64,000 nucleotides of DNA from Naegleria gruberi (Eukaryota): the NCBI GenBank assembly GCA_000004985.1, contig GG738857.1; one strand, given 5' to 3'. A program made the translations under genes and the position numbers. Below, piece after piece: positions 2,312 through 48,267 of the stretch. The notes beneath the pieces were generated by a model. It was given only the letters and a program-made list of their open reading frames with translations, made no database searches and was not told the DNA's origin. The first letter of the stretch is position 1. Each line of letters opens with the position of its first letter.

Positions 2312-4156
2312 ATGCAACAACAACAACTCAACAGTTACTCATTCCTTGAAGAGGAAGAAGAAGAGGAGAGAATGCAATCCATGCCATCTCTACCAGTATC
2401 ATCTTCATCAGATATCATACTCACTTCGTCAACAATAATTGACAATGAAAATAGTGATGATAATGAAATGATTGATAATGATGATAGAAAGCAAGCAAAG
2501 ATTGGATGGAAAGATTGGATTCTTAATGGTTTTAAAGGTAAACAAGTACAGAATAATGAACAGCAACCAAAATTATATAAGATGAGATGGGTCATGCTGA
2601 TGATATTTACTCTTTCAATGTTTAGTTCAGTTTTGGCTCAATCAACATTTTCATCAGTTGGGTAAGTTGAGAATATTATCAATTCTTTTGAATTCTAATG
2701 CCATTCAATTACATTTATAAATGAAATGCATTCATTTTCATTGTATATTATTTAATAATAATATTTATTACAAAAAAATAGAACAATAATGATGAAATAT
2801 TATAATGTTCCAAATGAGAATTGGAAAATCAACATGATGGGTATGATATTTCTCATTGTATCCCTTCCTTCATCATGGACAGTTAGTTTTGTCATGAAGA
2901 AATATGGTTTAAGATCATGTGTATTAATATTTGGAATTTTGACATGCATTGGAATGTGGATTCGTTGTTTAGGTTATGGAAAGGGAAATGAAACTAATTT
3001 ATGGATTGCATTCATTGGACAGTTTTTAATTGCCTTTGCTCAACATTTTGTGAGTAGTGTTTCAAGTTTGTTGAGTGTGAATTGGTTTGGAGATCGAGAG
3101 AGAACTCTTGTTTTGGTTTCAACTTTATTGATGGGTGTTATTGGAGGTGGAGTTTCATTTGCTATTGGACCTACTTTGATTACAATGGGTAAATCTGAAA
3201 TGGATGGATCTGAAATGGGAATGTTAATTTATTTAATTGGTCAATCGGTGATTGCATCTATTTGTTTAGTGTTAATTGTATTGTTTGTTAAGGATAAACC
3301 ACCAACACCTCCAGTAATTATGAAGAAGAAGGAAAGTGAAGAAGAAATGAATCAAGAAAATTTAGAAATTGAAGAGAAATCAAACGAAACAAATGAAACA
3401 AATGAAATGCAAGAAGAATCAAATATTAACAATGATATTGAGAATGGTAATTCACCAACACATTCTAATAATGAAGAAGAAATACAAGAAGAATCCAATA
3501 AGAAAGATATTTATCCAAAACAAACATTTATTGAAGGAATGAAAAAGTTAGTGACCTCTCCACATTTCATCATGTTAACCGTTGCATCATCCTGTCTCAC
3601 TTCTGTATTACAAACTCTTCAAATTTTAGATCAAATCATAACTCCAAAAGGTTATTCCACATTTGATGGCGCCAATTTTAGCATGGTCAACTTGGTTTTT
3701 GTATTAATTGGTTGTTTCGCATTAAGTATATTATTTGACAAGACAAAAAAGTTTAAATTGATAACATGCATTAGTAGTTTCATGTCTGTCATTGGATTTG
3801 GAATGTTTGCAATTATCATGCAATGGGAAAAGTCAGATTTCACATTAATATTTATTTACCTTTCATTTATCATTATTGGATGTTCTGCAATTCCAAGTTT
3901 GCCTTTAATCTCTCAAATGGTAGTTTATTCAACTTATCCTATTCATCCAGCAACTAGTTTAGTAATTTCAAGCGTATTTGGAACTGTGTGGAGTGTTGTC
4001 TTTTTATTTGTAATTAATATTTTACAAAGTCAATTAAGAGAAAAGGCATCTAGTATTATTTTATGGATGGATTTGGTATTATTAATTGTTGGTTTCTTAA
4101 TGATTTTACTTTTTAGAGGAAATTTCAATAATATTTTGGTCAACCAGAAAAAATAA
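2312..4156 (+). CDS. major facilitator superfamily transporter (FLVCR/MFSD7-like), 2 exons
   Basis: Exon 1 is 2312..2661 and ends at a GTAAGT donor at 2662. A 120-nt AT-rich intron ends ...aaaaaatAG at 2781. Exon 2 is 2782..4156 and joins in phase (..SSVG|TIMMKYY..). About 12 hydrophobic helices, an MFS-like motif GQFLIAFAQHFVSSVSSLLSVNWFGDRER, and an acidic central loop. Confidence 0.65.
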
Positions 4157-4184: not shown

Positions 4185-4257
4185 TGCTGACGGACGGGAT
4201 CGAACCGGCGACCAATGGCTTATTAGACCAACGCTCTACCGACTGAGCTACGCCAGC
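4185..4257 (-). tRNA. tRNA-Ile (anticodon AAU)
   Basis: The reverse complement folds as a 73-nt cloverleaf: acceptor GCTGGCG/CGTCAGC, D arm GCTC-AGTCGGTA-GAGC, anticodon stem-loop TTGGT-CTAATAA-GCCAT, T arm GCCGG-TTCGATC-CCGTC, discriminator A. It is near-identical in arm sequence to eukaryotic tRNA-Ile(AAU). It lies 29 bp past the MFS stop codon. Confidence 0.85.
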
Positions 4258-4721: not shown

Positions 4722-7199
4722 ATGAAAATAATTCCTCACCATCATCATTATAAGAAGAATATAATAACACATCTATTCAGTGTAACAAAAATATTCATCA
4801 TATTCATAATATTCACACAAATGTTATTATTAAATCATCTTTTAGTTCATTGTAAAGTAACACTTCAATCATCTGGATCAACATTTTCATCAATGGCTCA
4901 ATTAAATATTAAATCAATGTATACACTTGATATTTCACATTCAAATTCATTAGATTACACAGAGGAAGATTCCATAAGTGGAATTCGTAGAATGTTACTC
5001 ATTGAAGAACAACATCAAAATGATCTAGTTCATGTTGATTTTAATAGTGTTAAAACATTTCCATTCAATCAATTGAAAAGTATTCAAGAAGATTCAGTTT
5101 TTAAAGAGAAATCATATAATAATACAATGTGTATTGATAGTATGTTTGGAGTTTTGGTGTTTGCTATGAATGGTAATTTTGAAAATAACAAAATTTCTCA
5201 ATTATCTCTATCTTTGGAAAGTATTATTGATATTTATTTGGGAAATATTAAATATTGGGATGATTCTAGAATTGTAAATGAAAATCCAAACATAATTTTA
5301 CCATCAAATCAATTAATTTCTGTACTTTCAAGATCTTCAACAAGTGGAACAAGTTTAAATTTGTTAAATTATTTGGCAACACTTTCATCAGATTTTAATC
5401 AAAAGTTTAATTTTCTACTTTCAAATCCAACTTCCAAAATTAGAAATCTCAATTTAACTTCATTAACAACCAATTCAAATTTACTCATTCCAACAAATAA
5501 GGACATGTTAGAATACTTGAAAAATATGAAAGGTTCATTTGGATATACAAGTTTAAATGTTTATTCAAGTTTAACAAGTGAACAAAAAAGTAATGTCATT
5601 CTCATTAATTTAATTATTAATGGAAAGTCAATTGTACCATCTTTGGATAATGCAAAGAATACTATTTCTAAATTTGCTTCTTCTACTTTTAAATCAAGTG
5701 ATATTTATTCACAATCATTGTCAATTTCAAAATCTAATGAAAATCACTATCCACTCATTACATGTATATTTTGGTGTTTTAGACAATATCAATCATTGAG
5801 TGAAGATGGTGTTGCATTACTTCAATTCTTTACAAATTCATACAAGTATTTACAGAGCTCCACTCCAGTTACTACTACTACTACTACTACTTTAGAAACA
5901 ACCAGTACTGCTACGACAACTGATATGATCATGACAACTAGTTCATCAGTTAAGAATGCACTCAGAATGTATTTCAAGAGACAACAATCAACTTCAGAGG
6001 GAAGTTTGAGTGGTGTTATTGCACTTCCATCATGGCTCTCATCCAACAATTTGAAAATTATTGAACAAACTTTAATGTGTGAAAAAAAGTTGTGTTCCAC
6101 CATTCCAAAACCAACCAATGAGTATGTTACTCTATTCCTCCAAATTGCTCTCCCACTCTTAATTGTAATGGGATGTTGTGTTATGATTTTATTGATTGGT
6201 ATTGCAATTTATTGTATTAGAAAGAGAAGATTTAAATCACCTTCTCAACTCAATCAACAATTACTTCAAGATCAAGAAATTGAATATATGGAAGATAGTA
6301 CAACAGTTGCATCTACCTATACATTTACACCAAAACTCTTTGAAAAGGAACAATTGAAGAGTACAATTAGAACTGAAGAATTATCGCTTGATGAACAAAT
6401 TGGAAGTGGTTCATTCTCTGAAGTTTATAGAGGAAGATGGTTAGGAGCAACAGTTGCTGTCAAACGTTTCCTTGTCAATCATATTGAAAGTGATGAAATA
6501 GTTCAAGATTTTATTAAGGAATCTAAACTAATGTCTAAATTAAGACATCCAAATGTTGTTCAATTTATGGGAGTTTGTATTCAAATGCCACATTTATATA
6601 TGGTAACTGAATATTGTGAGAGAGGAAATTTACAACACATTCTCAAAGATAAGAAGATTAAAATTTCACTCAGAAAAACAATTTCAATGGCATTGGATGC
6701 TGCACGTGGAATGTACTATCTTCATACATGTGAAACTCCAATTATTCATAGAGATTTTAAGAGTGCCAATTTACTTGTTGATAAAAATTGGAGTGTTAAA
6801 GTTGGAGATTTTGGAATGTCAAGAATGATTGATTCTCAACAACAAATGACAGTTTGTGGAACAGCTGAAACATGTGCACCTGAAGTTTTAAAAAGAAGTA
6901 TGTATACAGAAAAGGCAGATGTCTATTCATTTGGTATTGTACTTTGGGAAATGTTTACAAGAAGTCAATTATATCCAGGAATGAATTTTTATGAGCTAAG
7001 TTCAAGAGTTGTAAATGAAGGTTTAAGACCAGATACAACAAGTACAAGATTTACTGAAGATCACATTCCAAAAACTATTCAAAATTTAATGACTGATTGT
7101 TGGGATGATGATCCAGATCATAGACCTGATTTTTCAATCATTGTTAAAAAATTAGAAAAGGAATTGGAAATTGAAAATCAAAAGAAGAATAAGGATTAA
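4722..7199 (+). CDS. receptor-like Ser/Thr (TKL-group) protein kinase with PstS-like phosphate-binding ectodomain
   Basis: 825 aa. Hydrophobic N-terminus, then an ectodomain carrying the PstS/phosphate-binding-protein motif IKYWDDSRIVNENPNIILPSNQLISVLSRSSTSGTSLNLLNYLA (compare bacterial PstS ..RxDGSGTTFxFTxYL..). A poly-Thr stalk (VTTTTTTTLETTSTATTT) precedes the TM helix IALPLLIVMGCCVMILLIGIAIYCI-RKRR. The kinase domain has GSGSFSEVY..VAVK, HRDFKSANLL, VGDFGMSR and CAPEV. Confidence 0.7.
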   Translation: MKIIPHHHHYKKNIITHLFSVTKIFIIFIIFTQMLLLNHLLVHCKVTLQSSGSTFSSMAQLNIKSMYTLDISHSNSLDYTEEDSISGIRRMLLIEEQHQNDLVHVDFNSVKTFPFNQLKSIQEDSVFKEKSYNNTMCIDSMFGVLVFAMNGNFENNKISQLSLSLESIIDIYLGNIKYWDDSRIVNENPNIILPSNQLISVLSRSSTSGTSLNLLNYLATLSSDFNQKFNFLLSNPTSKIRNLNLTSLTTNSNLLIPTNKDMLEYLKNMKGSFGYTSLNVYSSLTSEQKSNVILINLIINGKSIVPSLDNAKNTISKFASSTFKSSDIYSQSLSISKSNENHYPLITCIFWCFRQYQSLSEDGVALLQFFTNSYKYLQSSTPVTTTTTTTLETTSTATTTDMIMTTSSSVKNALRMYFKRQQSTSEGSLSGVIALPSWLSSNNLKIIEQTLMCEKKLCSTIPKPTNEYVTLFLQIALPLLIVMGCCVMILLIGIAIYCIRKRRFKSPSQLNQQLLQDQEIEYMEDSTTVASTYTFTPKLFEKEQLKSTIRTEELSLDEQIGSGSFSEVYRGRWLGATVAVKRFLVNHIESDEIVQDFIKESKLMSKLRHPNVVQFMGVCIQMPHLYMVTEYCERGNLQHILKDKKIKISLRKTISMALDAARGMYYLHTCETPIIHRDFKSANLLVDKNWSVKVGDFGMSRMIDSQQQMTVCGTAETCAPEVLKRSMYTEKADVYSFGIVLWEMFTRSQLYPGMNFYELSSRVVNEGLRPDTTSTRFTEDHIPKTIQNLMTDCWDDDPDHRPDFSIIVKKLEKELEIENQKKNKD

Positions 7200-29424: not shown

Positions 29425-31981
29425 ATGGGCAACAAGCAAACAGCAGGAAGTAATTCGCTTTCTGGTTCGATCGGAAGTAGTAGAATAGCTGTTGATGTTG
29501 ATCAACATCATTTGGAAGAATCAATAACATCATTTGTTGCTGATAATTACGATCCGAATGCTGAGGAAGAATATGGCATGGAGGATGTACAAGTCGAAGA
29601 GATGAGATTGGCTGTAGAGGGGAAGATTGCAACAGCTCCATTTGAAATTGGGCAATGGGTTAAAGAAGTTTTAGAATATTCATCACAATATTCGCCAAGT
29701 TGGACTGCTACCAATATTATTGGTGAGTCTAATTCTTTTCCAAAAGTAAGTATTTGCTAGAAGCTAGGGAGATCAACACAAATAGTATGGAGATATGACC
29801 ACGTGTTGGGCTCCACAATCTGCAAGTGGTTCTCATGAACATTTAATTGTTGAATTTGATAATTATGCTCTGATTGGAGGTTTACATATTTATGAAACAT
29901 ATAATTGTGGTGCTATTGTTAAGATTTCATGTCTTCCAGCAGGTAAATCGTATAGTATTGAAGAAGTTGACTCTGGTCAGGTTGATAATGATGGAAATTC
30001 TATTAGAAAGAATCAAGTAACTTCCAAACCTGAAGATTGGATTGTATTATATCAAGGTAATCCACAACAGTCAAGTCTTGCTAAGGAATCAAGAATTTTC
30101 GTTCCTCCAATTAAGAAATATTGTTGTGTTACAAAGATTATCAAAATTGAAATGGACACAACTGACAGTGAATCTTGGAGTGAAATTGATGCTATTAGAA
30201 TGTTTGGTATCATTTGTGATTCGGAAGTTGTTGATGCTATGGCACCAGTTTCAACAGCAGTTCATCATCAAAGTAAGGAATATGTTGAGGATTTAAAGAC
30301 ACTATTTATTAATGAACCATCAACTGATTGTGTCTCACTCAAGCTCCCAATCAAAAAGAAGATGCTTGCATCAACTCCAGAAAACCCATTGTATATTGTA
30401 TCACCAAAATTGTATTATGTTCATGAATTTTTATTGAGATATAGATTCCACAATTCTAGCATACTCGATAAGTACATTGTAAAGAGTGAGGATGAAATTA
30501 CGGACATGTCACCAAGTTCAAATTCATTCTCCATCACAGAGTCAGCAGCAAATAGCATTATTAATTATCTCTATTCTGGATCACTATTCCTTTCTCCATC
30601 CATGTTTAAAGAAAGTGAAGAAAATGATTATACTTCCTCTGAAGATTTCGTTAGAGAAATATTACAAATTTCAAATGCATTTGGAATTGAAACTTTGAAG
30701 GAAGCTTGTACTCAAACTATTGAAATTTCATCATTGATTGATGAAAAATTCAGACAACATGTAACAATATCCATTTTCAACCAACTTGCTTCCACCCTCT
30801 CTGTCAATGATTTATATGAGGATATGAGAGCTGTATTTGAAGAGGCTTGCACAAAAGGTGAAAATTATGATAGAAGAGCTGCTCCTGATATCAAGATCGT
30901 ATTTTCATTGTCAGGTGAGGATGATCCTTTGACTCCATCGAGTAGACCATGTATTTATACTCACTCTTCCATTCTTAAGGCAAGGTGTGCTTATTTTAAG
31001 GTAAGTTTTTGAAAATATGAAGATTAACAAATGTAAAAGACAATGTTCAATTGGGGAAATGTTACTGAGAACCCTTTCAGATTCTCTTCTGATAACATCA
31101 ATGAAATCGATATTCCAGATGTGAAATATGAAATTTTCTTAAAGATGATCAAGTTTATCTATTGTGGAATCCTTGAAAAGGGAGAAATTACACCAGAAGA
31201 AGCCATTCCACTCTACGTTGCACAAAATCAATATTTACTTGATTCTTCTGTGAGTGCATCAGTCATCAAGGAGAATTTATCTGAAACTAATGTAATGGAA
31301 ATCCTAGGATTGGCCGTTCAATTCTCATATCAAGAAATTTCTGAATTCTGTACCAACTATTTAATGAAGAATATTGAACGTGTTTATGTGGATGTTAGAA
31401 ACAGATTCAGAGAGGAGAGAGATAATGGAACATTGAATGATGATCCAATCTATCAACATTTGAAAGAAACTAGTTACATCTGGGATTTGATAATTAATAA
31501 TGATAATTTGCACTATACATCCCAGTGGGCTTATAGATTAATTGGTTTCTCATCAGAATATAACGGTTGGCCAGCAACTAATGTTATCGGCCCTTCGAAC
31601 ACCTACCCAGATTATGGCGATATTAAAACAGCTTGGGCTCCAAAACCATCAAAGAACTCTAAGGAATTTTTGGAATTGGAATTCTATAACCCAACATTCA
31701 TTACTGAAATTCGTGTTTATGAGACATATAACCCAGGTGCTCTTGTTATGGTAACTGCTGTCACAGAATCTCAAAAGGAACAAGATGTAATCTTTGAACA
31801 TGAACCAGTTGCTCACCTCCTTCCTGCACAATCAAGAATCAATGTCATTCCAATATCTGATCCAAAGAATGTCATGCAAAGAAAGTACAAATACTTACGT
31901 CTCGATATAGATACATCGAAGAATTATAGTTGGTATGAAATTGATGCCGTTTTGTTGTGTGGATTCATAGAAAAGAAATAA
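29425..31981 (+). CDS. N-myristoylation-motif protein with two BTB domains flanked by two discoidin/galactose-binding-like domains, 3 exons
   Basis: Exon 1 is 29425..29745 (MGNKQTAGS..), then a GTAAGT 40-nt intron. Exon 2 is 29786..31000, then a GTAAGT 39-nt intron. Exon 3 is 31040..31981. The second BTB spans the intron (..CIYTHSSILKARCAYFK|TMFNWG..IKFIYCG). A ~130-aa domain occurs twice, with the motif W(T/P)ATN(I/V)IG.SN..P.YGD...(C/A)WAP......E(H/F)L..EF.......I.(I/V)YETYN(C/P)GA(I/L)V. Confidence 0.6.
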
Positions 31982-33939: not shown

Positions 33940-36900
33940 ATGAAACACTTGTTGGATTTCGCGTATATGGGGAGGAAATTTTCACACGTTGATCACGATG
34001 GTCAATTAGTAACAAGGGAGTTTCGCAACTGTTTATTTATTCTAATGATTGCTGCTTGGATAACAATGTTGTGGTTGCCAGCACTTGCACATGGACAACA
34101 GTTAACAAAGACATTTTACATTGATTCGCTTCATGTTTCGAATACTAATTCATTCGAATGTGGAAATTCATCAAATCCATGCACTACAGTACAAGATGCT
34201 CTCAATTATTTTGCTTCGGATAGTTACATTCTAATTCAACACCAAATTTCCACCTCCAACACCTCCACACTCACCATTCAATTAACTTTCTTCATGTTAA
34301 ATGATGAACACAATTTTTGTGGTTACAATTTAAACACAACATTTAATGATAATATTGATTATGAATTGAGTTTTATTGGAAATGGGGTTTCTACATTGAC
34401 ATGTACGAAAGGGTATGGAGAGTTGAATTTCATTGAACCTCGTTTGGATATTTCAAAAGTGTTGTTTAGTCAACTTTCGTTGATTGGAGTGGTGTTTAAT
34501 TCATGTTCTTCTATTTCATTGACAGTTGTTAATTGTTTGATAACAGATGGTGGATTTATGACTTATTATCAACTCCAAGAATGTCCCAATTACGTTGCTT
34601 CGAACAGAACTATTCGAAACTTGTACCTTTCTAATATTTCCACATGGAATGGTGTTTTTTTAATTGGAAATGCAAAGAATGGGCTTATAGAGAATATTAG
34701 ATGTGATGGAGTTAGTGCCCTCTCATTCAATAATATGGAATCCATTCAACTTTCGAATGTTCAAATGCCTGGTGATGGATTATTCTCTTCTAACAATGTA
34801 AACTCTATCAGTTTCAAGAATTTCATTTCTACTGGACCTACATTCAACATCCACATTAGAGAATTTAAATCATTCACAATGGAAAGTAGTTCCTTTCAAA
34901 ACTATAAGTATTTTCAGTCAGCTGTCAACATTGACAGAGGAGAAAGTGCCAAAATTATTGATACAACAGTTCAATATTCCAGTCAATGGCTTTCTGCTAA
35001 AACTGTTAAGAAAATTGTCATTTCCAATTTAAGATTTTTGAATAATTATGTATTGGATGTTAGAACTTCCTTTTTAAGTCCAATTTTCATTTATAGTTGT
35101 GATAGTATTAAGATTGAGAATTCTTATTTTGATGGAAATTTTGGAACTAGATCTGGTCCAGTATTTATTGATGATTATTTGAATGTTGAAGTTTCGAATA
35201 ATACATTCATGAATGGTCGATCACTTGCTTCAGGTGGTGCCCTACATTTGGATAATTATCAAGCAGAATCATTATTAGAAAAGGCGACTGTTTTGATTAA
35301 GGATAATTTATTCCTTAATAACACATGTGAAAGAGTTGGTGGAGCTGTTTGCATTAATACTGTGGTCAATTGTGTTGTTACAGGAAACAAATTTATTAGA
35401 AATCAAGCAGTGGTCACTGGAGGTGCTCTTACTATTGCTGAGCATTGTAGAGATTGCCTTATTGAATCATACTTTGAAGAAAACAAGTCAATTGGAAATT
35501 ATTTAGAATTGGATTCGAATATTGTTTTTTCACAACAACTTTGGAATCGAATTATTGGAACTGGAGGTGCTCTTGCCATTTTCACAGAACCAAGATTTTC
35601 ATTTAGGATTTATGGATCTGTATTTGTGAGAAATTATGCAGGAAAAGGAGGAGCAATCCTAATGGGACTCAATTTACCAATTTCTCTCTCACAAAAAACT
35701 CCAACTTTTGTGCAAGATTGTAAATTTGAGGGAAATTTTGCAACCAAAACTGGAAATGATATTTATGCTGTGAATTTTCAAGCTCCTTTATCATATGTTA
35801 GAACTTTTATTAATCAAACAGAGGGAAATGAATATAGTTTCTCATCTAGTCCCGCCATTTTTAGAATTGTAAAGGTTAGCACTAACAAAGTTTATCCTGG
35901 TCAACCGATTGATATTGCATTCTATGTGGAGAATATATTTGGAAGGGAGATTGATATTGCATCTCAATATGTGGTTATTGATCAATTTCCTAACATGCTT
36001 CCTTTTTTGAATTATTCAAATGTTGACAGAAAGTCACTTGTCTTGACTCCTTATTCATTAACTACTGAAATGCCAATTGTTTCTCAATTTAATTTCTCAG
36101 TTTATTCAGAAGATCAAAAATTTTCAGCTAGTTTCCAATTCGAAATGTTTCCATGCCCAAAAAAGTTTATTCTACAAAAGAATGTTGCCTATTCTAATCT
36201 GGTCTATCAATGTGTGAGTGATAATAGTTTAGATCTTTCACTAGTTCTTGGACTGACTATTCCAATTGGAATTTTATTCTTAATTGTAGGAGCAATTTTG
36301 GGAGGATTGTCAGTTTATGCTATTCGATTCACACTTACACAAATTTCAATTCTCAAGACGAAACAAAGAGCTGAGAAGAGTCTTGAACAGAGAATTATAG
36401 ACAAGAAGATCATTTTCAATTCAGATCCTTCATCTGGTACCACTCACTATTCGAAATATAGTACAAATAGTGACCTTTCGGTTCCATTAATCGAAAATGG
36501 TAGCGCAGAAAAGAGTATGGCCACTCCATCCTTTGTCATTCCAATCGAAAGCATTGATATTATCAAAAAGTTAGCAGAAGGTGGATTAGGCATAATTTAT
36601 CTTGGTAAATTATGGAAGAAAATTGATGTTGCCATCAAATTACTGAAATCAAACGATCAAGATGAAGAATTTGAACAGGAAGTTTCCCTTCTAAGTTCAT
36701 TAAGACATGATAATATTGTTACATTTTATGGTATTTGTATGTCAGATGATGCCAAGTATATGATTACAGAGTTTGTTGAAAAGGGATCATTGGATAAAGC
36801 TCTGTACAAGTCAAGGATTGGAGAGGTGTCAATGTCAATTCAAAAGAAAATGTCAATATTGATAGCGACAGCAAGAGGAATTGAATATCTTCATGGATTA

Positions 36901-37557
36901 ACACCAACAGTTGTTCATCGTGATTTGGTATGTAATATTAGTTTCACAATTTCGCAATTAACATTGTTTTTTCTCTATTGGAAGAAACCTGGTAATATCC
37001 TATTGGAAGAAAAGAATCAAGCAAAGATTTGTGATTTTGGTATTTCAAGAACTGTGTCCAATGCAACTGTCCAACAAACAGCCATGACCACTAATTTAGG
37101 TACCTTAATCTATTGTCCAAATGAAGTAATTGAAGGACCTACTTTGACTAATAAGGCAAGCAAACAAACTGCCACCAAAATTGATATCTTTAGTTTCTCC
37201 GTAATTATGTGGGAAGTTTTCTTTGAAATTATTCCTTATTCACCATCGGTAGGAAAATTAACTCCACTATTTCAGTTATCAAAAGAGGAAAATGAAATGT
37301 TGAGTATGAATTCGTTTAATATTCCTTATTTTGTGGTGAAGGGAATGAGACCATTGATTCCATTCAGAACAGATGAGCAGATTAGAGAGTGGATTGAAAG
37401 ATACATGCCTGAACAGATTCACAATTCGAATATTGTTCAATTTGTAAATCGATTCTTTGCATTGGTTCAACAAGGTTGGTCAACTGATGCAACCAAGAGA
37501 CCAAATATTACAACTGTATTACAAGAACTTGAAGAACTGAATAATCTGATCAGATAG
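33940..37557 (+). CDS. receptor-like Ser/Thr (TKL) kinase with Pmp/parallel-beta-helix repeat ectodomain; in-frame 57-nt intron in catalytic loop
   Basis: Signal/TM N-terminus. The ectodomain carries repeated FxxN and GGA[ILV] motifs (NTFMNGRSLASGGALHL, NNTCERVGGAVCI, GNKFIRNQAVVTGGALTI, GTGGALAIF, GKGGAILM). TM helix LVLGLTIPIGILFLIVGAILGGLSVYAI. Kinase motifs VAIK and ICDFGISR are present. HRDL|KPGNILL is restored only after removing 36928..36984 (GTATGT..ttggaAG, 57 nt, no stop), so the ORF track reads through the intron. Confidence 0.7.
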   Translation: MKHLLDFAYMGRKFSHVDHDGQLVTREFRNCLFILMIAAWITMLWLPALAHGQQLTKTFYIDSLHVSNTNSFECGNSSNPCTTVQDALNYFASDSYILIQHQISTSNTSTLTIQLTFFMLNDEHNFCGYNLNTTFNDNIDYELSFIGNGVSTLTCTKGYGELNFIEPRLDISKVLFSQLSLIGVVFNSCSSISLTVVNCLITDGGFMTYYQLQECPNYVASNRTIRNLYLSNISTWNGVFLIGNAKNGLIENIRCDGVSALSFNNMESIQLSNVQMPGDGLFSSNNVNSISFKNFISTGPTFNIHIREFKSFTMESSSFQNYKYFQSAVNIDRGESAKIIDTTVQYSSQWLSAKTVKKIVISNLRFLNNYVLDVRTSFLSPIFIYSCDSIKIENSYFDGNFGTRSGPVFIDDYLNVEVSNNTFMNGRSLASGGALHLDNYQAESLLEKATVLIKDNLFLNNTCERVGGAVCINTVVNCVVTGNKFIRNQAVVTGGALTIAEHCRDCLIESYFEENKSIGNYLELDSNIVFSQQLWNRIIGTGGALAIFTEPRFSFRIYGSVFVRNYAGKGGAILMGLNLPISLSQKTPTFVQDCKFEGNFATKTGNDIYAVNFQAPLSYVRTFINQTEGNEYSFSSSPAIFRIVKVSTNKVYPGQPIDIAFYVENIFGREIDIASQYVVIDQFPNMLPFLNYSNVDRKSLVLTPYSLTTEMPIVSQFNFSVYSEDQKFSASFQFEMFPCPKKFILQKNVAYSNLVYQCVSDNSLDLSLVLGLTIPIGILFLIVGAILGGLSVYAIRFTLTQISILKTKQRAEKSLEQRIIDKKIIFNSDPSSGTTHYSKYSTNSDLSVPLIENGSAEKSMATPSFVIPIESIDIIKKLAEGGLGIIYLGKLWKKIDVAIKLLKSNDQDEEFEQEVSLLSSLRHDNIVTFYGICMSDDAKYMITEFVEKGSLDKALYKSRIGEVSMSIQKKMSILIATARGIEYLHGLTPTVVHRDLVCNISFTISQLTLFFLYWKKPGNILLEEKNQAKICDFGISRTVSNATVQQTAMTTNLGTLIYCPNEVIEGPTLTNKASKQTATKIDIFSFSVIMWEVFFEIIPYSPSVGKLTPLFQLSKEENEMLSMNSFNIPYFVVKGMRPLIPFRTDEQIREWIERYMPEQIHNSNIVQFVNRFFALVQQGWSTDATKRPNITTVLQELEELNNLIR

Positions 37558-48193: not shown

Positions 48194-48267
48194 TACCGAC
48201 AATGGGGCTCGAACCCACGACCCCAGGATTAGAAGTCCTGTGCTCTATCCAACTGAGCTATGACGGC
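48194..48267 (-). tRNA. tRNA-Arg (anticodon UCU)
   Basis: The reverse complement GCCGTCA-TA-GCTC-AGTTGGATA-GAGC-A-CAGGA-CTTCTAA-TCCTG-GGGTC-GTGGG-TTCGAGC-CCCAT-TGTCGGT-A is a 74-nt cloverleaf with anticodon TCT. There is one U-U mismatch at acceptor pair 5-68. Confidence 0.8.

What the first reader, a model, noticed from the sequence alone, without database searches (positions are those of the whole stretch)
4722..7199. Receptor-like TKL kinase whose ectodomain is a bacterial PstS-type phosphate-binding protein domain
The extracellular region carries the diagnostic PstS stretch (IKYWDDSRIVNENPNIILPSNQLISVLSRSSTSGTSLNLLNYLA, compare I.kWdD..I..lNP...LP...I.vV.R.DGSGTTf.FT.YL). It is joined through a poly-Thr stalk and a single TM helix to an intact Ser/Thr kinase domain (VAVK, HRDFKSANLL, DFG, APE). 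A periplasmic-binding-protein fold feeding a eukaryotic kinase suggests a phosphate or oxyanion-sensing receptor kinase, possibly built on a horizontally acquired module.
Basis: partly seen in the sequence, partly recalled or inferred. Interest (0 to 1): 0.6.

Follow-up and report, generated by a model that had tools for sequence, protein, structure and literature searches.

The report
Amoeba receptor kinase with phosphate-binding ectodomain
This Naegleria gruberi gene encodes a single-pass membrane kinase whose outer part is a bacterial-type phosphate-binding (PstS) domain with its phosphate-contacting residues intact, making it a testable candidate for a direct extracellular phosphate receptor in a eukaryote.

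Summary
Window 4722-7199 (+) is one intron-free 825-aa ORF of Naegleria gruberi. It reads: signal peptide, PstS-type domain, one TM helix, Raf/CTR1-like TKL kinase with all catalytic motifs.

Four methods support PstS homology:
- Pfam PBP_like_2, above its gathering score.
- NCBIfam TIGR00975, E 1e-23 to 3e-26.
- Profile-profile comparison, 99.6% probability.
- AlphaFold model (pLDDT 81) matching E. coli PstS, TM 0.82-0.84.

The eight phosphate ligands of E. coli PstS have identical counterparts, conserved in N. lovaniensis; N. fowleri keeps the six that were aligned plus the same SGSTF motif. Only the Asp56 counterpart is placed ambiguously.

- The poly-Thr tract is a Naegleria-specific insert inside the PstS domain, partly a perfect (ACT)7 microsatellite. 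It is not a stalk.
- The nearest relatives of the ectodomain are other eukaryotic receptor ectodomains (Percolomonas and environmental kinases, mollusc guanylate-cyclase receptors). A recent bacterial transfer into Naegleria is therefore unlikely.

PstS ectodomains in eukaryotes also occur on class-C GPCRs, which is published; I found no paper on the kinase fusion. Ligand binding and signalling are untested. I rate it a new variant of a known kind, of moderate to good interest.

The parts
4722..7199 (+). Complete intron-free CDS, 825 aa plus stop: the PstS-ectodomain receptor-like TKL kinase of Naegleria gruberi.
   Evidence: ORF list. It is 100% identical to the NCBI N. gruberi protein P0001, whose 760-aa model starts only at M66. 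Orthologues exist in N. lovaniensis and N. fowleri.
4722..4853 (+). Signal peptide or signal anchor, aa 1-44: His/Lys-rich n-region, then hydrophobic IFIIFIIFTQMLLLNHLLV. It is missing from the deposited gene model.
   Evidence: Hydropathy peak at aa 13-44. An equivalent hydrophobic stretch sits directly before KVxLxSSGSTF in N. lovaniensis and in the extended N. fowleri ORF L001:3758-6328. No signal-peptide predictor was available.
4854..5858 (+). PstS-type (PBP_like_2) domain, main part, aa 45-379, covering both lobes.
   Evidence: TIGR00975 E 1e-23 over aa 49-375. Pfam PF12849 above its gathering score. hhalign 99.6%. AlphaFold pLDDT is mostly above 90. Foldseek TM 0.82-0.84 to E. coli PstS.
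4881..4886 (+). T54-F55, counterparts of the E. coli PstS phosphate ligands Thr10 and Phe11 (motif SGSTF).
   Evidence: MAFFT alignment A3 and hhalign. Counting from K45 the residue numbers coincide with those of mature E. coli PstS. The same SGSTF motif is present in N. lovaniensis and in the extended N. fowleri ORF.
4971..4973 (+). S84, counterpart of PstS Ser38.
   Evidence: A3 columns and hhalign. Invariant in the three Naegleria species.
5037..5039 (+). D106, the most likely counterpart of PstS Asp56. The alternative is D101 at 5022-5024.
   Evidence: MAFFT A3 puts D106 opposite Asp56; hhalign puts D101 there. The AlphaFold secondary structure (strand at ectodomain residues 58-61, then D62 = D106) favours D106. 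Both Asp residues are invariant in the three species.
5331..5351 (+). R204-S-S-T-S208-G209-T210, counterparts of PstS Arg135, Ser139, Gly140 and Thr141. PstS Asp137 is replaced by S206.
   Evidence: HMMER alignment to E. coli PstS, A3 and hhalign. R, S, G and T are invariant in Naegleria.
5859..6002 (+). Thr/Ser-rich low-complexity insert, aa ~380-427, inside the PstS domain. It probably forms a mucin-like loop.
   Evidence: Deleting aa 380-424 extends the TIGR00975 match to profile positions 2-312 of 315 and raises the score from 86.6 to 92.1 bits. pLDDT is below 50 here, while the segment after it is above 90. The insert is absent from P0272, P0127, P0139 and all non-Naegleria homologues, and its length differs among the three Naegleria species.
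5870..5891 (+). Perfect trinucleotide microsatellite (7.3 copies) encoding the Thr run.
   Evidence: Tandem Repeats Finder: period 3, 100% matches.
6003..6074 (+). Last strand and C-terminal helix of the PstS fold, aa ~428-451 (SLSGVIALPSWLSSNNLKIIEQTL). This corresponds to the bacterial 'Y.PLP..vv..v' C-terminus.
   Evidence: TIGR00975 match extension. AlphaFold strand at ectodomain residues 388-390 and helix at 393-406, with pLDDT 92-95. Alignment A4.
6075..6122 (+). Short extracellular linker MCEKKLCSTIPKPTNE, aa 452-467, with two invariant Cys (C453, C458).
   Evidence: The M-C-x(4-7)-C motif is shared with P0272, P0127 and P0139. A single 'TCxG' Cys occupies the same place in the mollusc, Chromosphaera and P0126 domains. 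The ectodomain Cys C137, C352, C453 and C458 are invariant in Naegleria. Disulfide pairing is inferred, not shown.
6123..6218 (+). Single transmembrane helix, aa ~468-499, followed by RKRR (positive-inside).
   Evidence: Hydropathy maximum 2.87 at aa 467-501. All homologues have one TM segment between the PstS and kinase domains.
6219..6383 (+). Cytoplasmic juxtamembrane segment, aa 500-554, with the invariant blocks PSQLNQQLL and ASTYT(F/Y)TPKLFE.
   Evidence: Invariant columns in alignment A1. A regulatory or phospho-site role is inferred only.
6384..7154 (+). TKL-type protein kinase domain, aa 555-811, with all catalytic motifs: GSGSFSEV, VAVK (K581), E600, HRD (D678), N683, DFG (696-698), APE (719-721).
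   Evidence: Pfam PF07714 E 1.2e-66 and PF00069 E 9e-58. The best solved relatives are CTR1 (E 1e-56), MLK1/4, TNNI3K and B-Raf. The motifs are invariant in the three species.

Best explanation
The gene encodes a type-I single-pass receptor kinase of Naegleria gruberi.

Shown by sequence and structure prediction: the extracytoplasmic part is one complete PstS-type 'Venus-flytrap' domain, two lobes around a buried anion pocket. That pocket keeps the phosphate-coordinating residues of bacterial PstS. The last helix of the domain is joined by a linker of only about 16 residues, containing two Cys, to a single TM helix. A Raf/CTR1-like TKL kinase with all catalytic residues follows.

Inferred: orthophosphate (or the near-isosteric arsenate) binds between the lobes and closes them. 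Because the C-terminal helix is tethered so closely to the membrane, closure would change the position or the dimerisation of the TM helix and juxtamembrane segment. That in turn would switch the cytoplasmic kinase, as dimerisation does for Raf/CTR1-type kinases. The cell would thereby read phosphate concentration in the medium, or in a phagosome or other vesicle lumen, and turn it into Ser/Thr phosphorylation.

The Thr-rich loop is a dispensable, probably O-glycosylated, slippage-generated insert.

The protein belongs to a heterolobosean family of PstS-TM-TKL kinases. That family is part of a wider, patchily distributed set of eukaryotic receptors that use PstS ectodomains with kinase, guanylate-cyclase or class-C GPCR outputs.
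For: Architecture: ORF and hydropathy; Pfam and NCBIfam domains.

Fold: AlphaFold on 55 sequences gave pLDDT 81.2 and pTM 0.82. The top 12 Foldseek PDB hits are all PstS, at E 2e-20 to 4e-16 with target-normalised TM 0.81-0.84.

Ligand site: T54, F55, S84, D106, R204, S208, G209 and T210 align with PstS T10, F11, S38, D56, R135, S139, G140 and T141. They are identical in N. lovaniensis, and the six that could be aligned are identical in N. fowleri, although the ectodomains are only about 45% identical overall. The extended N. fowleri ORF also carries SGSTF.

Tight coupling: the final PstS helix lies just before the linker and TM helix.

Extracytoplasmic location: four invariant ectodomain Cys and a conserved N-x-T sequon at N133.

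Active kinase: all motifs are present and invariant; the closest solved kinases are CTR1, MLK and B-Raf.

Purifying selection as one unit: the same architecture occurs in three Naegleria species, in Percolomonas, and in the environmental relatives P0272 and P0134. P0127 is a fragment that keeps the PstS domain, the TM helix and the start of the kinase domain. The family is monophyletic in 82-89% of NJ bootstraps.

Context: a review states that how eukaryotes sense external Pi locally is still unknown (PMC11528361).
Against: No binding, localisation, expression or kinase data exist. Everything after 'fold plus conserved residues' is inference.

The score against the PstS equivalog model is far below its trusted cut-off (84-92 bits against 205). 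This is a divergent PstS relative, not an orthologue.

The counterpart of Asp56, which is the residue that selects protonated phosphate over sulfate, is placed differently by MAFFT (D106) and hhalign (D101). PstS Asp137 is replaced by Ser or Gly.

Relatives within the same clade have lost ligand residues: P0272 has Trp at the Arg135 position, P0127 has Cys at Ser139, and P0134 has Ser at Thr141. Phosphate binding is therefore not universal in the family.

I could not inspect model coordinates, so pocket geometry and disulfides are unverified. The AlphaFold alignment was built largely from bacterial PstS, which biases the model toward that fold.
Confidence: 0.55

Rival explanations
1. Same receptor-kinase architecture, but the pocket has been retuned to a different small ligand. 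Candidates are arsenate, sulfate, molybdate or tungstate, phosphite or phosphonate, pyrophosphate, or a phosphorylated compound released by bacterial prey. The receptor would then report prey or another nutrient rather than orthophosphate.
For: The match to the PstS equivalog model is well below its cut-off. Asp137 is replaced by Ser or Gly, and the Asp56 counterpart is ambiguous. Clade members vary at ligand positions. Lower Foldseek hits include ModA and other oxyanion binders of the same fold.
Against: All eight phosphate ligands have identical counterparts in N. gruberi and N. lovaniensis, and all six that could be aligned do in N. fowleri, at about 45% background identity. An invariant Asp is available for the proton-accepting role that excludes sulfate. 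Asp137-to-Gly/Ser/Ala also occurs in otherwise typical single-domain PstS homologues in the alignment. The E. coli D137G, D137T and D137N mutants were crystallised with bound phosphate (PDB 1qui, 1qul, 1quk titles). Every top structural hit is a phosphate binder.
Confidence: 0.2
2. The receptor sits on an internal membrane. The PstS domain faces the lumen of phagosomes, lysosomes or the contractile-vacuole system and reports lumenal phosphate released by digestion. The kinase would regulate vesicle maturation, as the lumen-facing receptor-like TKL VSK3 does in Dictyostelium. This is a variant of the best explanation that differs in location and output.
For: [quoted passage not shown] Naegleria is a bacterivorous phagotroph (general knowledge). 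The topology (signal peptide, one TM, cytoplasmic kinase) fits either location.
Against: No sorting signal was analysed. No homology between this ectodomain and those of VSK/DRK was found or reported; the DRK ectodomains are described as unique to Dictyostelium or as TIG domains (PMC1420674). No localisation data exist.
Confidence: 0.15
3. The PstS domain no longer binds any ligand. It would serve as a structural, adhesion or dimerisation module, or the kinase would be constitutively active and the ectodomain a relic.
For: The ectodomain evolves much faster than the kinase: about 45% against more than 85% identity among Naegleria species. It tolerates a microsatellite-driven insert. Some relatives have lost ligand residues.
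Against: Exactly the ligand residues are invariant while the surroundings diverge. The full two-lobe fold is retained with high confidence. The fusion is conserved across Heterolobosea.
Confidence: 0.08
4. The PstS module is a recent bacterial-to-Naegleria horizontal transfer fused to a resident kinase.
For: PstS is overwhelmingly a prokaryotic family. 1922 proteins matched at E<=0.001 in the exhaustive search, and the single-domain, roughly 340-aa proteins among the listed hits that carry a source name are named phosphate ABC-transporter substrate-binding proteins.
Against: No bacterial PstS is close. With the Naegleria-only profile the best single-domain score belongs to a kinase-linked relative (P0272, 83 bits), followed by P0127 (81 bits), which groups in the same heterolobosean-type clade. 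Typical PstS-like proteins score 65 bits or less. The ectodomain groups with Percolomonas and other kinase-linked ectodomains (82-89% bootstrap). The sister group is made of other eukaryotic or eukaryote-like receptor domains in the replicates examined. The eukaryotic domains share Cys positions absent from bacterial PstS. Composition of the gene is like the rest of the window, about 27-31% G+C.
Confidence: 0.05

Closest known systems
Bacterial periplasmic phosphate-binding protein PstS (E. coli; PDB 1IXH/2ABH/1A54; Pfam PBP_like_2 PF12849; NCBIfam TIGR00975)
   Same: Same two-lobe type-II binding-protein fold (TM 0.82-0.84). Same eight phosphate-ligand positions. The same N-terminal start of the mature domain and the same C-terminal helix.
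   Different: About 20% identity, and far below the equivalog cut-off. It is not a free or lipid-anchored protein serving a PstCAB transporter; it is covalently joined through a TM helix to a kinase. It has extra Cys residues, an N-glycosylation sequon and a Thr-rich insert. Asp137 is replaced.
Heterolobosean PstS-TM-TKL kinases (N. lovaniensis C9374_013999, N. fowleri FDP41_001085, Percolomonas cosmopolitus A0A7S1KQ72, environmental P0272/P0127/P0139/P0134)
   Same: Same order of parts in the full-length members (PstS, TM, TKL kinase). P0139 is a short fragment with no kinase sequence. The 'FWC' Cys and the M-C-x(4-7)-C pre-TM motif are shared by the Naegleria proteins, P0272, P0127 and P0139. 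The ectodomains form one clade.
   Different: Only Naegleria carries the Thr/Ser-rich insert. Percolomonas has large acidic inserts. Some members lack Arg135 or Ser139 counterparts. All are uncharacterised.
Eukaryotic PstS-ectodomain receptors with other outputs: mollusc receptor guanylate cyclases (Haliotis XP_067652446.1, annotated 'atrial natriuretic peptide receptor 1-like'), Endostelium PstS x2-EGF-kinase-cyclase, PBP_like_2-7tm_3 GPCRs (Polychytrium XP_052962774.1; Plasmodiophora, PMC4815078)
   Same: A PstS-type domain is used as the extracellular sensor of a eukaryotic transmembrane receptor. The mollusc-type ectodomains are the most frequent sister group of the Naegleria clade (35-46% of bootstraps).
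   Different: The output is a kinase-homology domain plus cyclase, or a 7TM bundle, rather than an active TKL kinase. Only the 7tm_3 fusion has been noted in print among the papers I could search.
Natriuretic-peptide receptor / receptor guanylate cyclases and class-C GPCRs (Venus-flytrap receptors)
   Same: Same logic: a bacterial-type periplasmic-binding-protein module closes on a ligand and drives a membrane-tethered intracellular (pseudo)kinase, cyclase or 7TM domain. This rests on established knowledge.
   Different: Those use the type-I ANF_receptor/LIVBP-like fold (PF01094), not the type-II PstS fold. Their ligands are peptides, amino acids or Ca2+.
Bacterial Hanks-type Ser/Thr kinases with an extracytoplasmic PstS domain (e.g. 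metagenomic P0113, 670 aa)
   Same: Kinase, one TM helix and a PstS domain with all ligand residues in one polypeptide.
   Different: The order is opposite: kinase N-terminal, PstS C-terminal. The kinase is not TKL. The PstS domain groups with bacterial PstS, not with the eukaryotic clade. This is an independent fusion.
Dictyostelium receptor-like TKLs DRK/VSK (VSK3; PMC2064856, PMC1420674)
   Same: Protist single-pass receptor-like TKL kinases with a signal peptide, an extracytoplasmic N-terminal domain and a C-terminal kinase.
   Different: Their ectodomains are described as Dictyostelium-specific or TIG, not PstS. VSK3 phosphorylates Tyr in vitro.

Membership tests
PstS / PBP_like_2 (PF12849) phosphate-binding protein superfamily | Significant match to the family HMM above the curated gathering score | tested here: met
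   PF12849 scored 33.0 bits against a cut-off of 27, E 6.8e-8. hhalign against a bacterial PstS alignment gave 99.6%, E 3e-24.
PstS / PBP_like_2 (PF12849) phosphate-binding protein superfamily | Two-lobe type-II periplasmic-binding-protein fold superimposable on solved PstS | tested here: met
   AlphaFold model with pLDDT 81.2 and pTM 0.82. Foldseek against PDB: E. coli, Yersinia, Burkholderia and Xanthomonas PstS at E 2e-20 to 4e-16, target-normalised TM 0.81-0.84. Caveat: the model alignment was mostly PstS sequences.
PstS / PBP_like_2 (PF12849) phosphate-binding protein superfamily | Phosphate ligands Thr10, Phe11 (backbone), Ser38, Asp56, Arg135, Ser139, Gly140, Thr141 (E. coli numbering) | tested here: met
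   T54, F55, S84, D106 (or D101), R204, S208, G209 and T210. They are invariant across the Naegleria sequences aligned at each position. The Asp56 counterpart is ambiguous between two invariant Asp residues.
PstS equivalog (NCBIfam TIGR00975: substrate-binding subunit of the PstSCAB transporter) | Score at or above the curated equivalog cut-off (205 bits) | tested here: not met
   83.8 bits for the full protein and 92.1 bits with the insert removed. It is a homologue of PstS, not a PstS orthologue.
PstS equivalog (NCBIfam TIGR00975: substrate-binding subunit of the PstSCAB transporter) | Free or lipid-anchored soluble protein that delivers Pi to PstC/PstA permease | tested here: not met
   The domain is fused in one ORF to a TM helix and a kinase. 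No other PstS-like sequence is in the window. Presence of PstC/A elsewhere in the genome was not testable.
PstS equivalog (NCBIfam TIGR00975: substrate-binding subunit of the PstSCAB transporter) | Measured high-affinity orthophosphate binding | not testable with these tools
   This needs purified ectodomain and ITC, MST or radioligand assays.
TKL-group eukaryotic protein kinases | Protein-kinase fold with complete catalytic motifs (G-loop, VAIK Lys, alphaC Glu, HRD, Asn, DFG, APE) | tested here: met
   PF07714 E 1.2e-66. GSGSFSEV, VAVK, E600, HRDFKSAN, DFG and APE are read from the sequence and are invariant in three species.
TKL-group eukaryotic protein kinases | Closest similarity to recognised TKL families | tested here: met
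   Best PDB sequence hits are CTR1 (E 1.3e-56), MLK4/MLK1, TNNI3K and B-Raf, with Tyr kinases interleaved as is usual for TKLs. A formal kinome-group HMM or tree was not run.
Type-I single-pass receptor kinase | N-terminal signal sequence, one TM helix, extracytoplasmic N-terminal domain, cytoplasmic kinase | tested here: inconclusive
   Hydropathy shows an N-terminal hydrophobic segment and one TM segment followed by RKRR. There are conserved ectodomain Cys and an N-x-T sequon. No signal-peptide or topology predictor, and no experiment, was available.
Dictyostelium DRK/VSK receptor-like TKL family | Shared DRK-type (or TIG) ectodomain and DRK-family kinase | tested here: inconclusive
   Papers describe DRK ectodomains as Dictyostelium-specific or TIG (PMC1420674; PMC2064856). 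None of the named proteins among the 150 listed matches is from Dictyostelium. I had no DRK sequences to compare directly.
Receptor guanylate cyclases with PstS ectodomain (mollusc / Endostelium type) | C-terminal Guanylate_cyc (PF00211) catalytic domain after a kinase-homology domain | tested here: not met
   No cyclase domain: the ORF ends 14 aa after the kinase domain. Haliotis, Endostelium and the environmental relatives do have it.

The most novel reading that the evidence does not exclude
PstS-type Venus-flytrap ectodomains form an old, so far undescribed class of eukaryotic cell-surface phosphate receptors. One ligand-binding module would be wired to at least three outputs: TKL kinase in Heterolobosea, kinase-homology domain plus guanylate cyclase in molluscs and Amoebozoa, and class-C 7TM in chytrids and Plasmodiophora. 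The Naegleria protein would be the simplest member, a direct receptor kinase for extracellular orthophosphate. That would answer, for these lineages, how eukaryotes sense external phosphate.
Probability: 0.3. Interest if true: 0.8.

Novelty: new variant of a known kind. Interest (0 to 1): 0.58.

Why it matters
How eukaryotic cells perceive external, as opposed to intracellular, phosphate is still largely open. [quoted passage not shown]

This gene offers a concrete candidate that can be tested biochemically. A PstS pocket with its ligand residues intact is hard-wired through one TM helix to an apparently active Raf/CTR1-like kinase, and the arrangement is conserved in three Naegleria species, including the pathogen N. 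fowleri.

It also points to a wider set of eukaryotic receptors built on the same module, with kinase, guanylate-cyclase and GPCR outputs. Some are currently mis-named: the Haliotis protein is annotated 'atrial natriuretic peptide receptor 1-like'.

In practical terms, the deposited gene models for N. gruberi and N. fowleri are N-terminally truncated and should be corrected. The ectodomain could also serve as a eukaryote-derived phosphate biosensor scaffold.

Tried and rejected
1. AlphaFold on the three Naegleria ectodomains alone failed (pLDDT 27.5). It was repeated with 55 sequences.

2. The word-indexed homology search with the ectodomain alone gave only two weak bacterial hits. With a 14-sequence eukaryotic alignment it returned only 29 proteins, all PBP_like_2-only and about 290-480 aa, several of them named phosphate ABC-transporter substrate-binding protein. 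It was therefore useless for a census of eukaryotic fusions. The exhaustive representative search was used instead.

3. The afdb50 fold library was not installed. UniProt-level annotation of relatives, including Dictyostelium DrkA-D, could not be checked.

4. My first by-eye alignment put Lys or Gln opposite PstS Asp56, which would have argued for altered specificity. MAFFT, hhalign and the predicted secondary structure all place an invariant Asp there instead, so I rejected that reading.

5. The 'poly-Thr stalk' reading was rejected.

6. Deep branching of the eukaryotic PstS domains is unresolved. The clade 'heterolobosean plus mollusc-type' appears in the best NJ tree but had 0% bootstrap as an exact set. 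I make no claim of a single ancestral PstS-kinase fusion.

7. Synteny is uninformative. N. fowleri and N. lovaniensis share Sec5 and RhoGEF neighbours, while N. gruberi has an MFS transporter, a tRNA-Ile and unknown ORFs.

8. There is no second PstS-like sequence in the window.

9. Equal-length ORF pairs elsewhere in the window (446 aa and 405 aa) are not duplicates.

10. Literature searches for PstS or PBP_like_2 with receptor kinase, guanylate cyclase or Naegleria found no description of this protein or of PstS-kinase fusions in eukaryotes. The library is open-access only, so absence of a paper is not proof.

Full report
**1. What is in the sequence**

Window 4722..7199 (+) is a single uninterrupted ORF of 825 codons plus stop, in AT-rich DNA of about 27-31% G+C like the rest of the window. 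The protein is 100% identical to an NCBI protein of Naegleria gruberi named 'serine/threonine protein kinase' (P0001).

That deposited model has only 760 aa because it starts at Met66 of the ORF. Orthologues exist in N. lovaniensis (848 aa, 55% identity) and N. fowleri (775-aa model, 53%).

In N. fowleri the reading frame continues upstream of the annotated start. The resulting 856-aa ORF begins with a hydrophobic leader followed by KVVLRSSGSTFS. N. lovaniensis and N. gruberi have the same arrangement. The long ORF is therefore the correct model. The deposited N. gruberi and N. fowleri models lack both the signal sequence and the first strand of the ectodomain.

**2. Topology**

Hydropathy gives two hydrophobic segments. 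One is N-terminal (aa ~13-44). The other is a TM segment (aa 467-501) followed by RKRR.

The region between them contains four Cys invariant in the three species (C137, C352, C453, C458) and a conserved N-x-T sequon at N133. This fits a type-I membrane protein with an extracytoplasmic N-terminal domain. No signal-peptide predictor was available, so the topology is inferred.

**3. The ectodomain is a PstS-type domain**

- Pfam PBP_like_2 is above its gathering score: 33 bits against 27, E 6.8e-8.
- NCBIfam TIGR00975 (PstS) matches aa 49-375 to profile positions 2-285 of 315 at E 1.1e-23.
- A profile of the three Naegleria ectodomains finds E. coli PstS in the PDB at E 7e-16.
- hhalign against 14 bacterial PstS sequences gives 99.6% probability, E 3e-24.
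- AlphaFold with only three sequences failed (pLDDT 27.5). With a 55-sequence alignment it gave pLDDT 81.2 and pTM 0.82.
- Foldseek placed that model on E. coli, Yersinia, Burkholderia and Xanthomonas PstS at E 2e-20 to 4e-16, with target-normalised TM 0.81-0.84. Other PstS and DING proteins followed, and only then ModA-type binders.

The score remains far below the TIGR00975 equivalog cut-off of 205 bits. This is a divergent homologue, not an orthologue of the transporter subunit.

**4. The phosphate pocket**

In alignment A3 the Naegleria residues T54, F55, S84, D106, R204, S208, G209 and T210 fall in the columns of E. coli PstS Thr10, Phe11, Ser38, Asp56, Arg135, Ser139, Gly140 and Thr141. 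The ligand list comes from the established PstS crystallography literature.

Counting from K45, the likely first mature residue, the N-terminal numbering even coincides with mature E. coli PstS. All eight positions are identical in N. lovaniensis. N. fowleri matches at the six positions its truncated model allowed me to align, and its extended ORF carries the same SGSTF motif. The ectodomains are only 45-47% identical overall.

There is one uncertainty. hhalign puts D101, rather than D106, opposite Asp56. Both Asp residues are invariant. The predicted strand at ectodomain residues 58-61, followed by D62 (= D106), favours the MAFFT solution. My first by-eye alignment, which put Lys or Gln at this position, was wrong.

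PstS Asp137 is Ser in N. gruberi and Gly in the other two species. The same replacements occur in otherwise typical PstS homologues in the alignment. E. coli D137G, D137T and D137N mutants were crystallised with bound phosphate (entry titles).

**5. The poly-Thr tract is an insert, not a stalk**

- Removing aa 380-424 extends the TIGR00975 match to profile positions 2-312 of 315 and raises the score from 86.6 to 92.1 bits.
- In the model the tract has pLDDT below 50. The following segment (VIALPSWLSSNNLKIIEQTL) forms the last strand and helix of the fold at pLDDT 92-95.
- Homologues outside Naegleria lack the tract, and its length differs among the three Naegleria species.
- Part of it is a perfect trinucleotide microsatellite (7.3 copies, 5870-5891), so replication slippage explains it.

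The true connection to the membrane is a linker of only about 16 residues with two invariant Cys (MCEKKLCSTIPKPTNE). The flytrap is therefore tethered closely to the TM helix.

**6. The kinase**

Pfam PK_Tyr_Ser-Thr scores E 1.2e-66 over aa 555-811. G-loop, VAVK, alphaC Glu, HRD, Asn, DFG and APE are all present and invariant among species.

The closest solved kinases are Arabidopsis CTR1 (E 1.3e-56), MLK1/4, TNNI3K and B-Raf, which is the Raf/MLK-like part of the TKL group. These kinases are regulated by dimerisation (established knowledge). That makes a ligand-controlled dimer or TM rearrangement a reasonable transduction mechanism, but it is inferred.

The juxtamembrane blocks PSQLNQQLL and ASTYT(F/Y)TPKLFE are invariant. 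Their role is unknown.

**7. Relatives**

An exhaustive HMM search of 1.84 billion representative proteins with the Naegleria ectodomain profile found 1922 matches at E<=0.001, but only 35 at E<=1e-10. Eleven of the 150 listed matches contain a kinase domain. Pfam scans and source names show the following.

- **PstS-TM-TKL kinases.** These occur in Percolomonas cosmopolitus (another heterolobosean) and in the environmental proteins P0272/P0187 and P0134. P0127 is a fragment that breaks off at the start of the kinase domain, and P0139 is a fragment with PstS and TM only. P0272, P0127 and P0139 share the 'FWC' Cys and the M-C-x(4-7)-C pre-TM motif with Naegleria.
- **PstS, kinase-homology domain and guanylate cyclase.** These occur in the abalone Haliotis asinina (annotated 'atrial natriuretic peptide receptor 1-like'), in environmental sequences and in the amoebozoan Endostelium. 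Aplysia has a related PstS protein whose other domains I did not scan.
- **PstS-7tm_3 class-C GPCRs.** These occur in the chytrid Polychytrium and in environmental sequences. A PstS-RGS protein was also found.
- **Multi-PstS proteins.** These occur in Chromosphaera, Entosiphon and Volvox.

With the Naegleria-only profile the best single-domain scores are P0272 (83 bits) and P0127 (81 bits). Typical PstS-like proteins score 65 bits or less.

In neighbour-joining trees of 160 domains, the heterolobosean-type ectodomains are monophyletic in 82-89% of bootstraps. Their sister is most often the mollusc-type cyclase receptors (35-46%) and otherwise other eukaryotic PstS domains. The deeper node is unresolved.

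A probably bacterial metagenomic protein (P0113) also joins a Hanks kinase, a TM helix and a PstS domain, but in the opposite order. Its PstS domain groups with bacterial sequences, so it is an independent fusion.

Taken together, the module has been resident in eukaryotic receptors for a long time. A recent bacterial transfer into Naegleria is unlikely, although an ancient bacterial origin is probable.

**8. What is known**

PBP_like_2 fused to 7tm_3 has been noted in Plasmodiophora (PMC4815078). The domain is also listed among those of amoebozoan GPCRs (PMC10445921).

In bacteria free PstS can signal to a chemoreceptor, and solute-binding proteins stimulate sensor kinases and one Ser/Thr kinase system (PMC8050422).

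Dictyostelium has receptor-like TKLs (DRK/VSK). Their ectodomains are described as Dictyostelium-specific or TIG, and VSK3 faces the lysosome lumen (PMC1420674; PMC2064856).

I found no paper describing a PstS-kinase receptor in any eukaryote or mentioning this Naegleria gene. The database record already lists both Pfam domains for the protein, so the architecture is catalogued but not discussed.

**9. Most likely mechanism and rivals**

The best explanation (confidence about 0.55) is a receptor kinase in which orthophosphate closes the PstS flytrap. The movement would be passed through the short Cys-linker and TM helix to a dimerisation-regulated TKL kinase.

- Shown: architecture, fold, conserved ligand residues, intact catalytic motifs and conservation of the fusion.
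- Inferred: ligand identity, location, direction of regulation and downstream effects.

The rivals are:
- a retuned pocket for another oxyanion or a phosphorylated prey compound (0.2);
- a lumen-facing phagosomal or lysosomal sensor like VSK3 (0.15; a variant of the main model);
- a ligand-dead structural module (0.08);
- recent horizontal transfer as the origin of the module (0.05).

Loss of Arg135 or Ser139 counterparts in some clade members shows that not all relatives can bind phosphate in the same way.

**10. Verdict**

This is a new variant of a known kind: a Venus-flytrap receptor with a kinase output that uses the type-II PstS module instead of the type-I ANF_receptor module.

Interest is moderate to good (0.58). 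The architecture is clear-cut, conserved in N. fowleri, undescribed in the searchable literature, and makes the question of extracellular phosphate sensing in a eukaryote directly testable. Against that, the protein and its domains are already in the databases, related PstS-GPCR fusions are published, and function is entirely inferred.

Noticed in passing
window 4722-4916; L001:3758-4000: The deposited gene models for N. gruberi (760 aa, starting at M66) and N. fowleri (775 aa) are N-terminally truncated. The in-frame upstream ORF adds a signal sequence and the first PstS strand, which carries two phosphate ligands (SGSTF). It is conserved in all three Naegleria species.
   Followed up: yes
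P0143 (Haliotis asinina XP_067652446.1), P0137 (Aplysia XP_012946989.1), P0246/P0249/P0206/P0129 (environmental): The Haliotis protein and environmental relatives (P0246, P0249, P0206) have a PstS-type (PBP_like_2) ectodomain, not an ANF_receptor domain, in front of a kinase-homology domain and guanylate cyclase. Haliotis keeps all the PstS phosphate ligands. It is annotated 'atrial natriuretic peptide receptor 1-like', which looks like a misnomer. P0129 shows only PstS plus a kinase-like domain, and the related Aplysia PstS protein was not scanned for other domains.
   Followed up: partly
P0157 (Polychytrium aggregatum XP_052962774.1), P0152, P0156, P0149, P0160, P0154, P0173: PstS ectodomains are also fused to 7tm_3 class-C GPCR bundles (one chytrid and several environmental proteins). 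One protein carries an RGS domain, and one combines PstS with an ANF_receptor domain.
   Followed up: partly
P0123 (Chromosphaera perkinsii), P0124/P0125 (Entosiphon sulcatum), P0128 (Volvox africanus): Large eukaryotic proteins carry three or four tandem PstS domains. Function is unknown, and their other domains were not examined except for Volvox, which has PBP_like_2 only.
   Followed up: no
P0272/P0187, P0127, P0134 (environmental heterolobosean-type PstS kinases): Close relatives of the Naegleria receptor have substitutions at ligand positions: Trp for Arg135, Cys for Ser139, Ser for Thr141. This suggests paralogues with changed or lost ligand binding.
   Followed up: partly
window 5870-5891: A perfect trinucleotide microsatellite (7.3 copies) encodes the Thr run inside the coding sequence. 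The surrounding Thr/Ser-rich insert differs in length in the three Naegleria species.
   Followed up: yes
window 4185-4257 (-) and 48194-48267 (-): tRNA-Ile(AAT) lies about 460 bp upstream of the receptor gene, between it and an MFS transporter gene. tRNA-Arg(TCT) lies further along the window.
   Followed up: no
window 2789-4156 (+): The upstream neighbour is an MFS_1 transporter (E 1e-25) with an acidic, Asn-rich central loop. Its substrate is unknown, and any functional link to the receptor is unsupported. The neighbourhood is not conserved in N. fowleri or N. lovaniensis, which have Sec5 and RhoGEF neighbours instead.
   Followed up: partly
window 33940-37557 (+): A second TKL-type kinase ORF of 1205 aa has its kinase domain near the C-terminus, 27% identical to the receptor's kinase, and no PstS domain. 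Its long N-terminal region has no Pfam match.
   Followed up: no
window 29795-31012 and 31043-31981 (+): Two adjacent ORFs (405 and 312 aa) are distant paralogues: 30% identity over 148 aa, E 4e-14. They were not characterised further.
   Followed up: no
P0113 (metagenome), P0131/P0276 cluster (JGI metagenomes): Probably bacterial Ser/Thr kinases carry a C-terminal extracytoplasmic PstS domain, the opposite order to the Naegleria protein. There is also a ~2200-aa protein family labelled both kinase and phosphate-binding protein. These look like independent fusions of the same two modules.
   Followed up: partly
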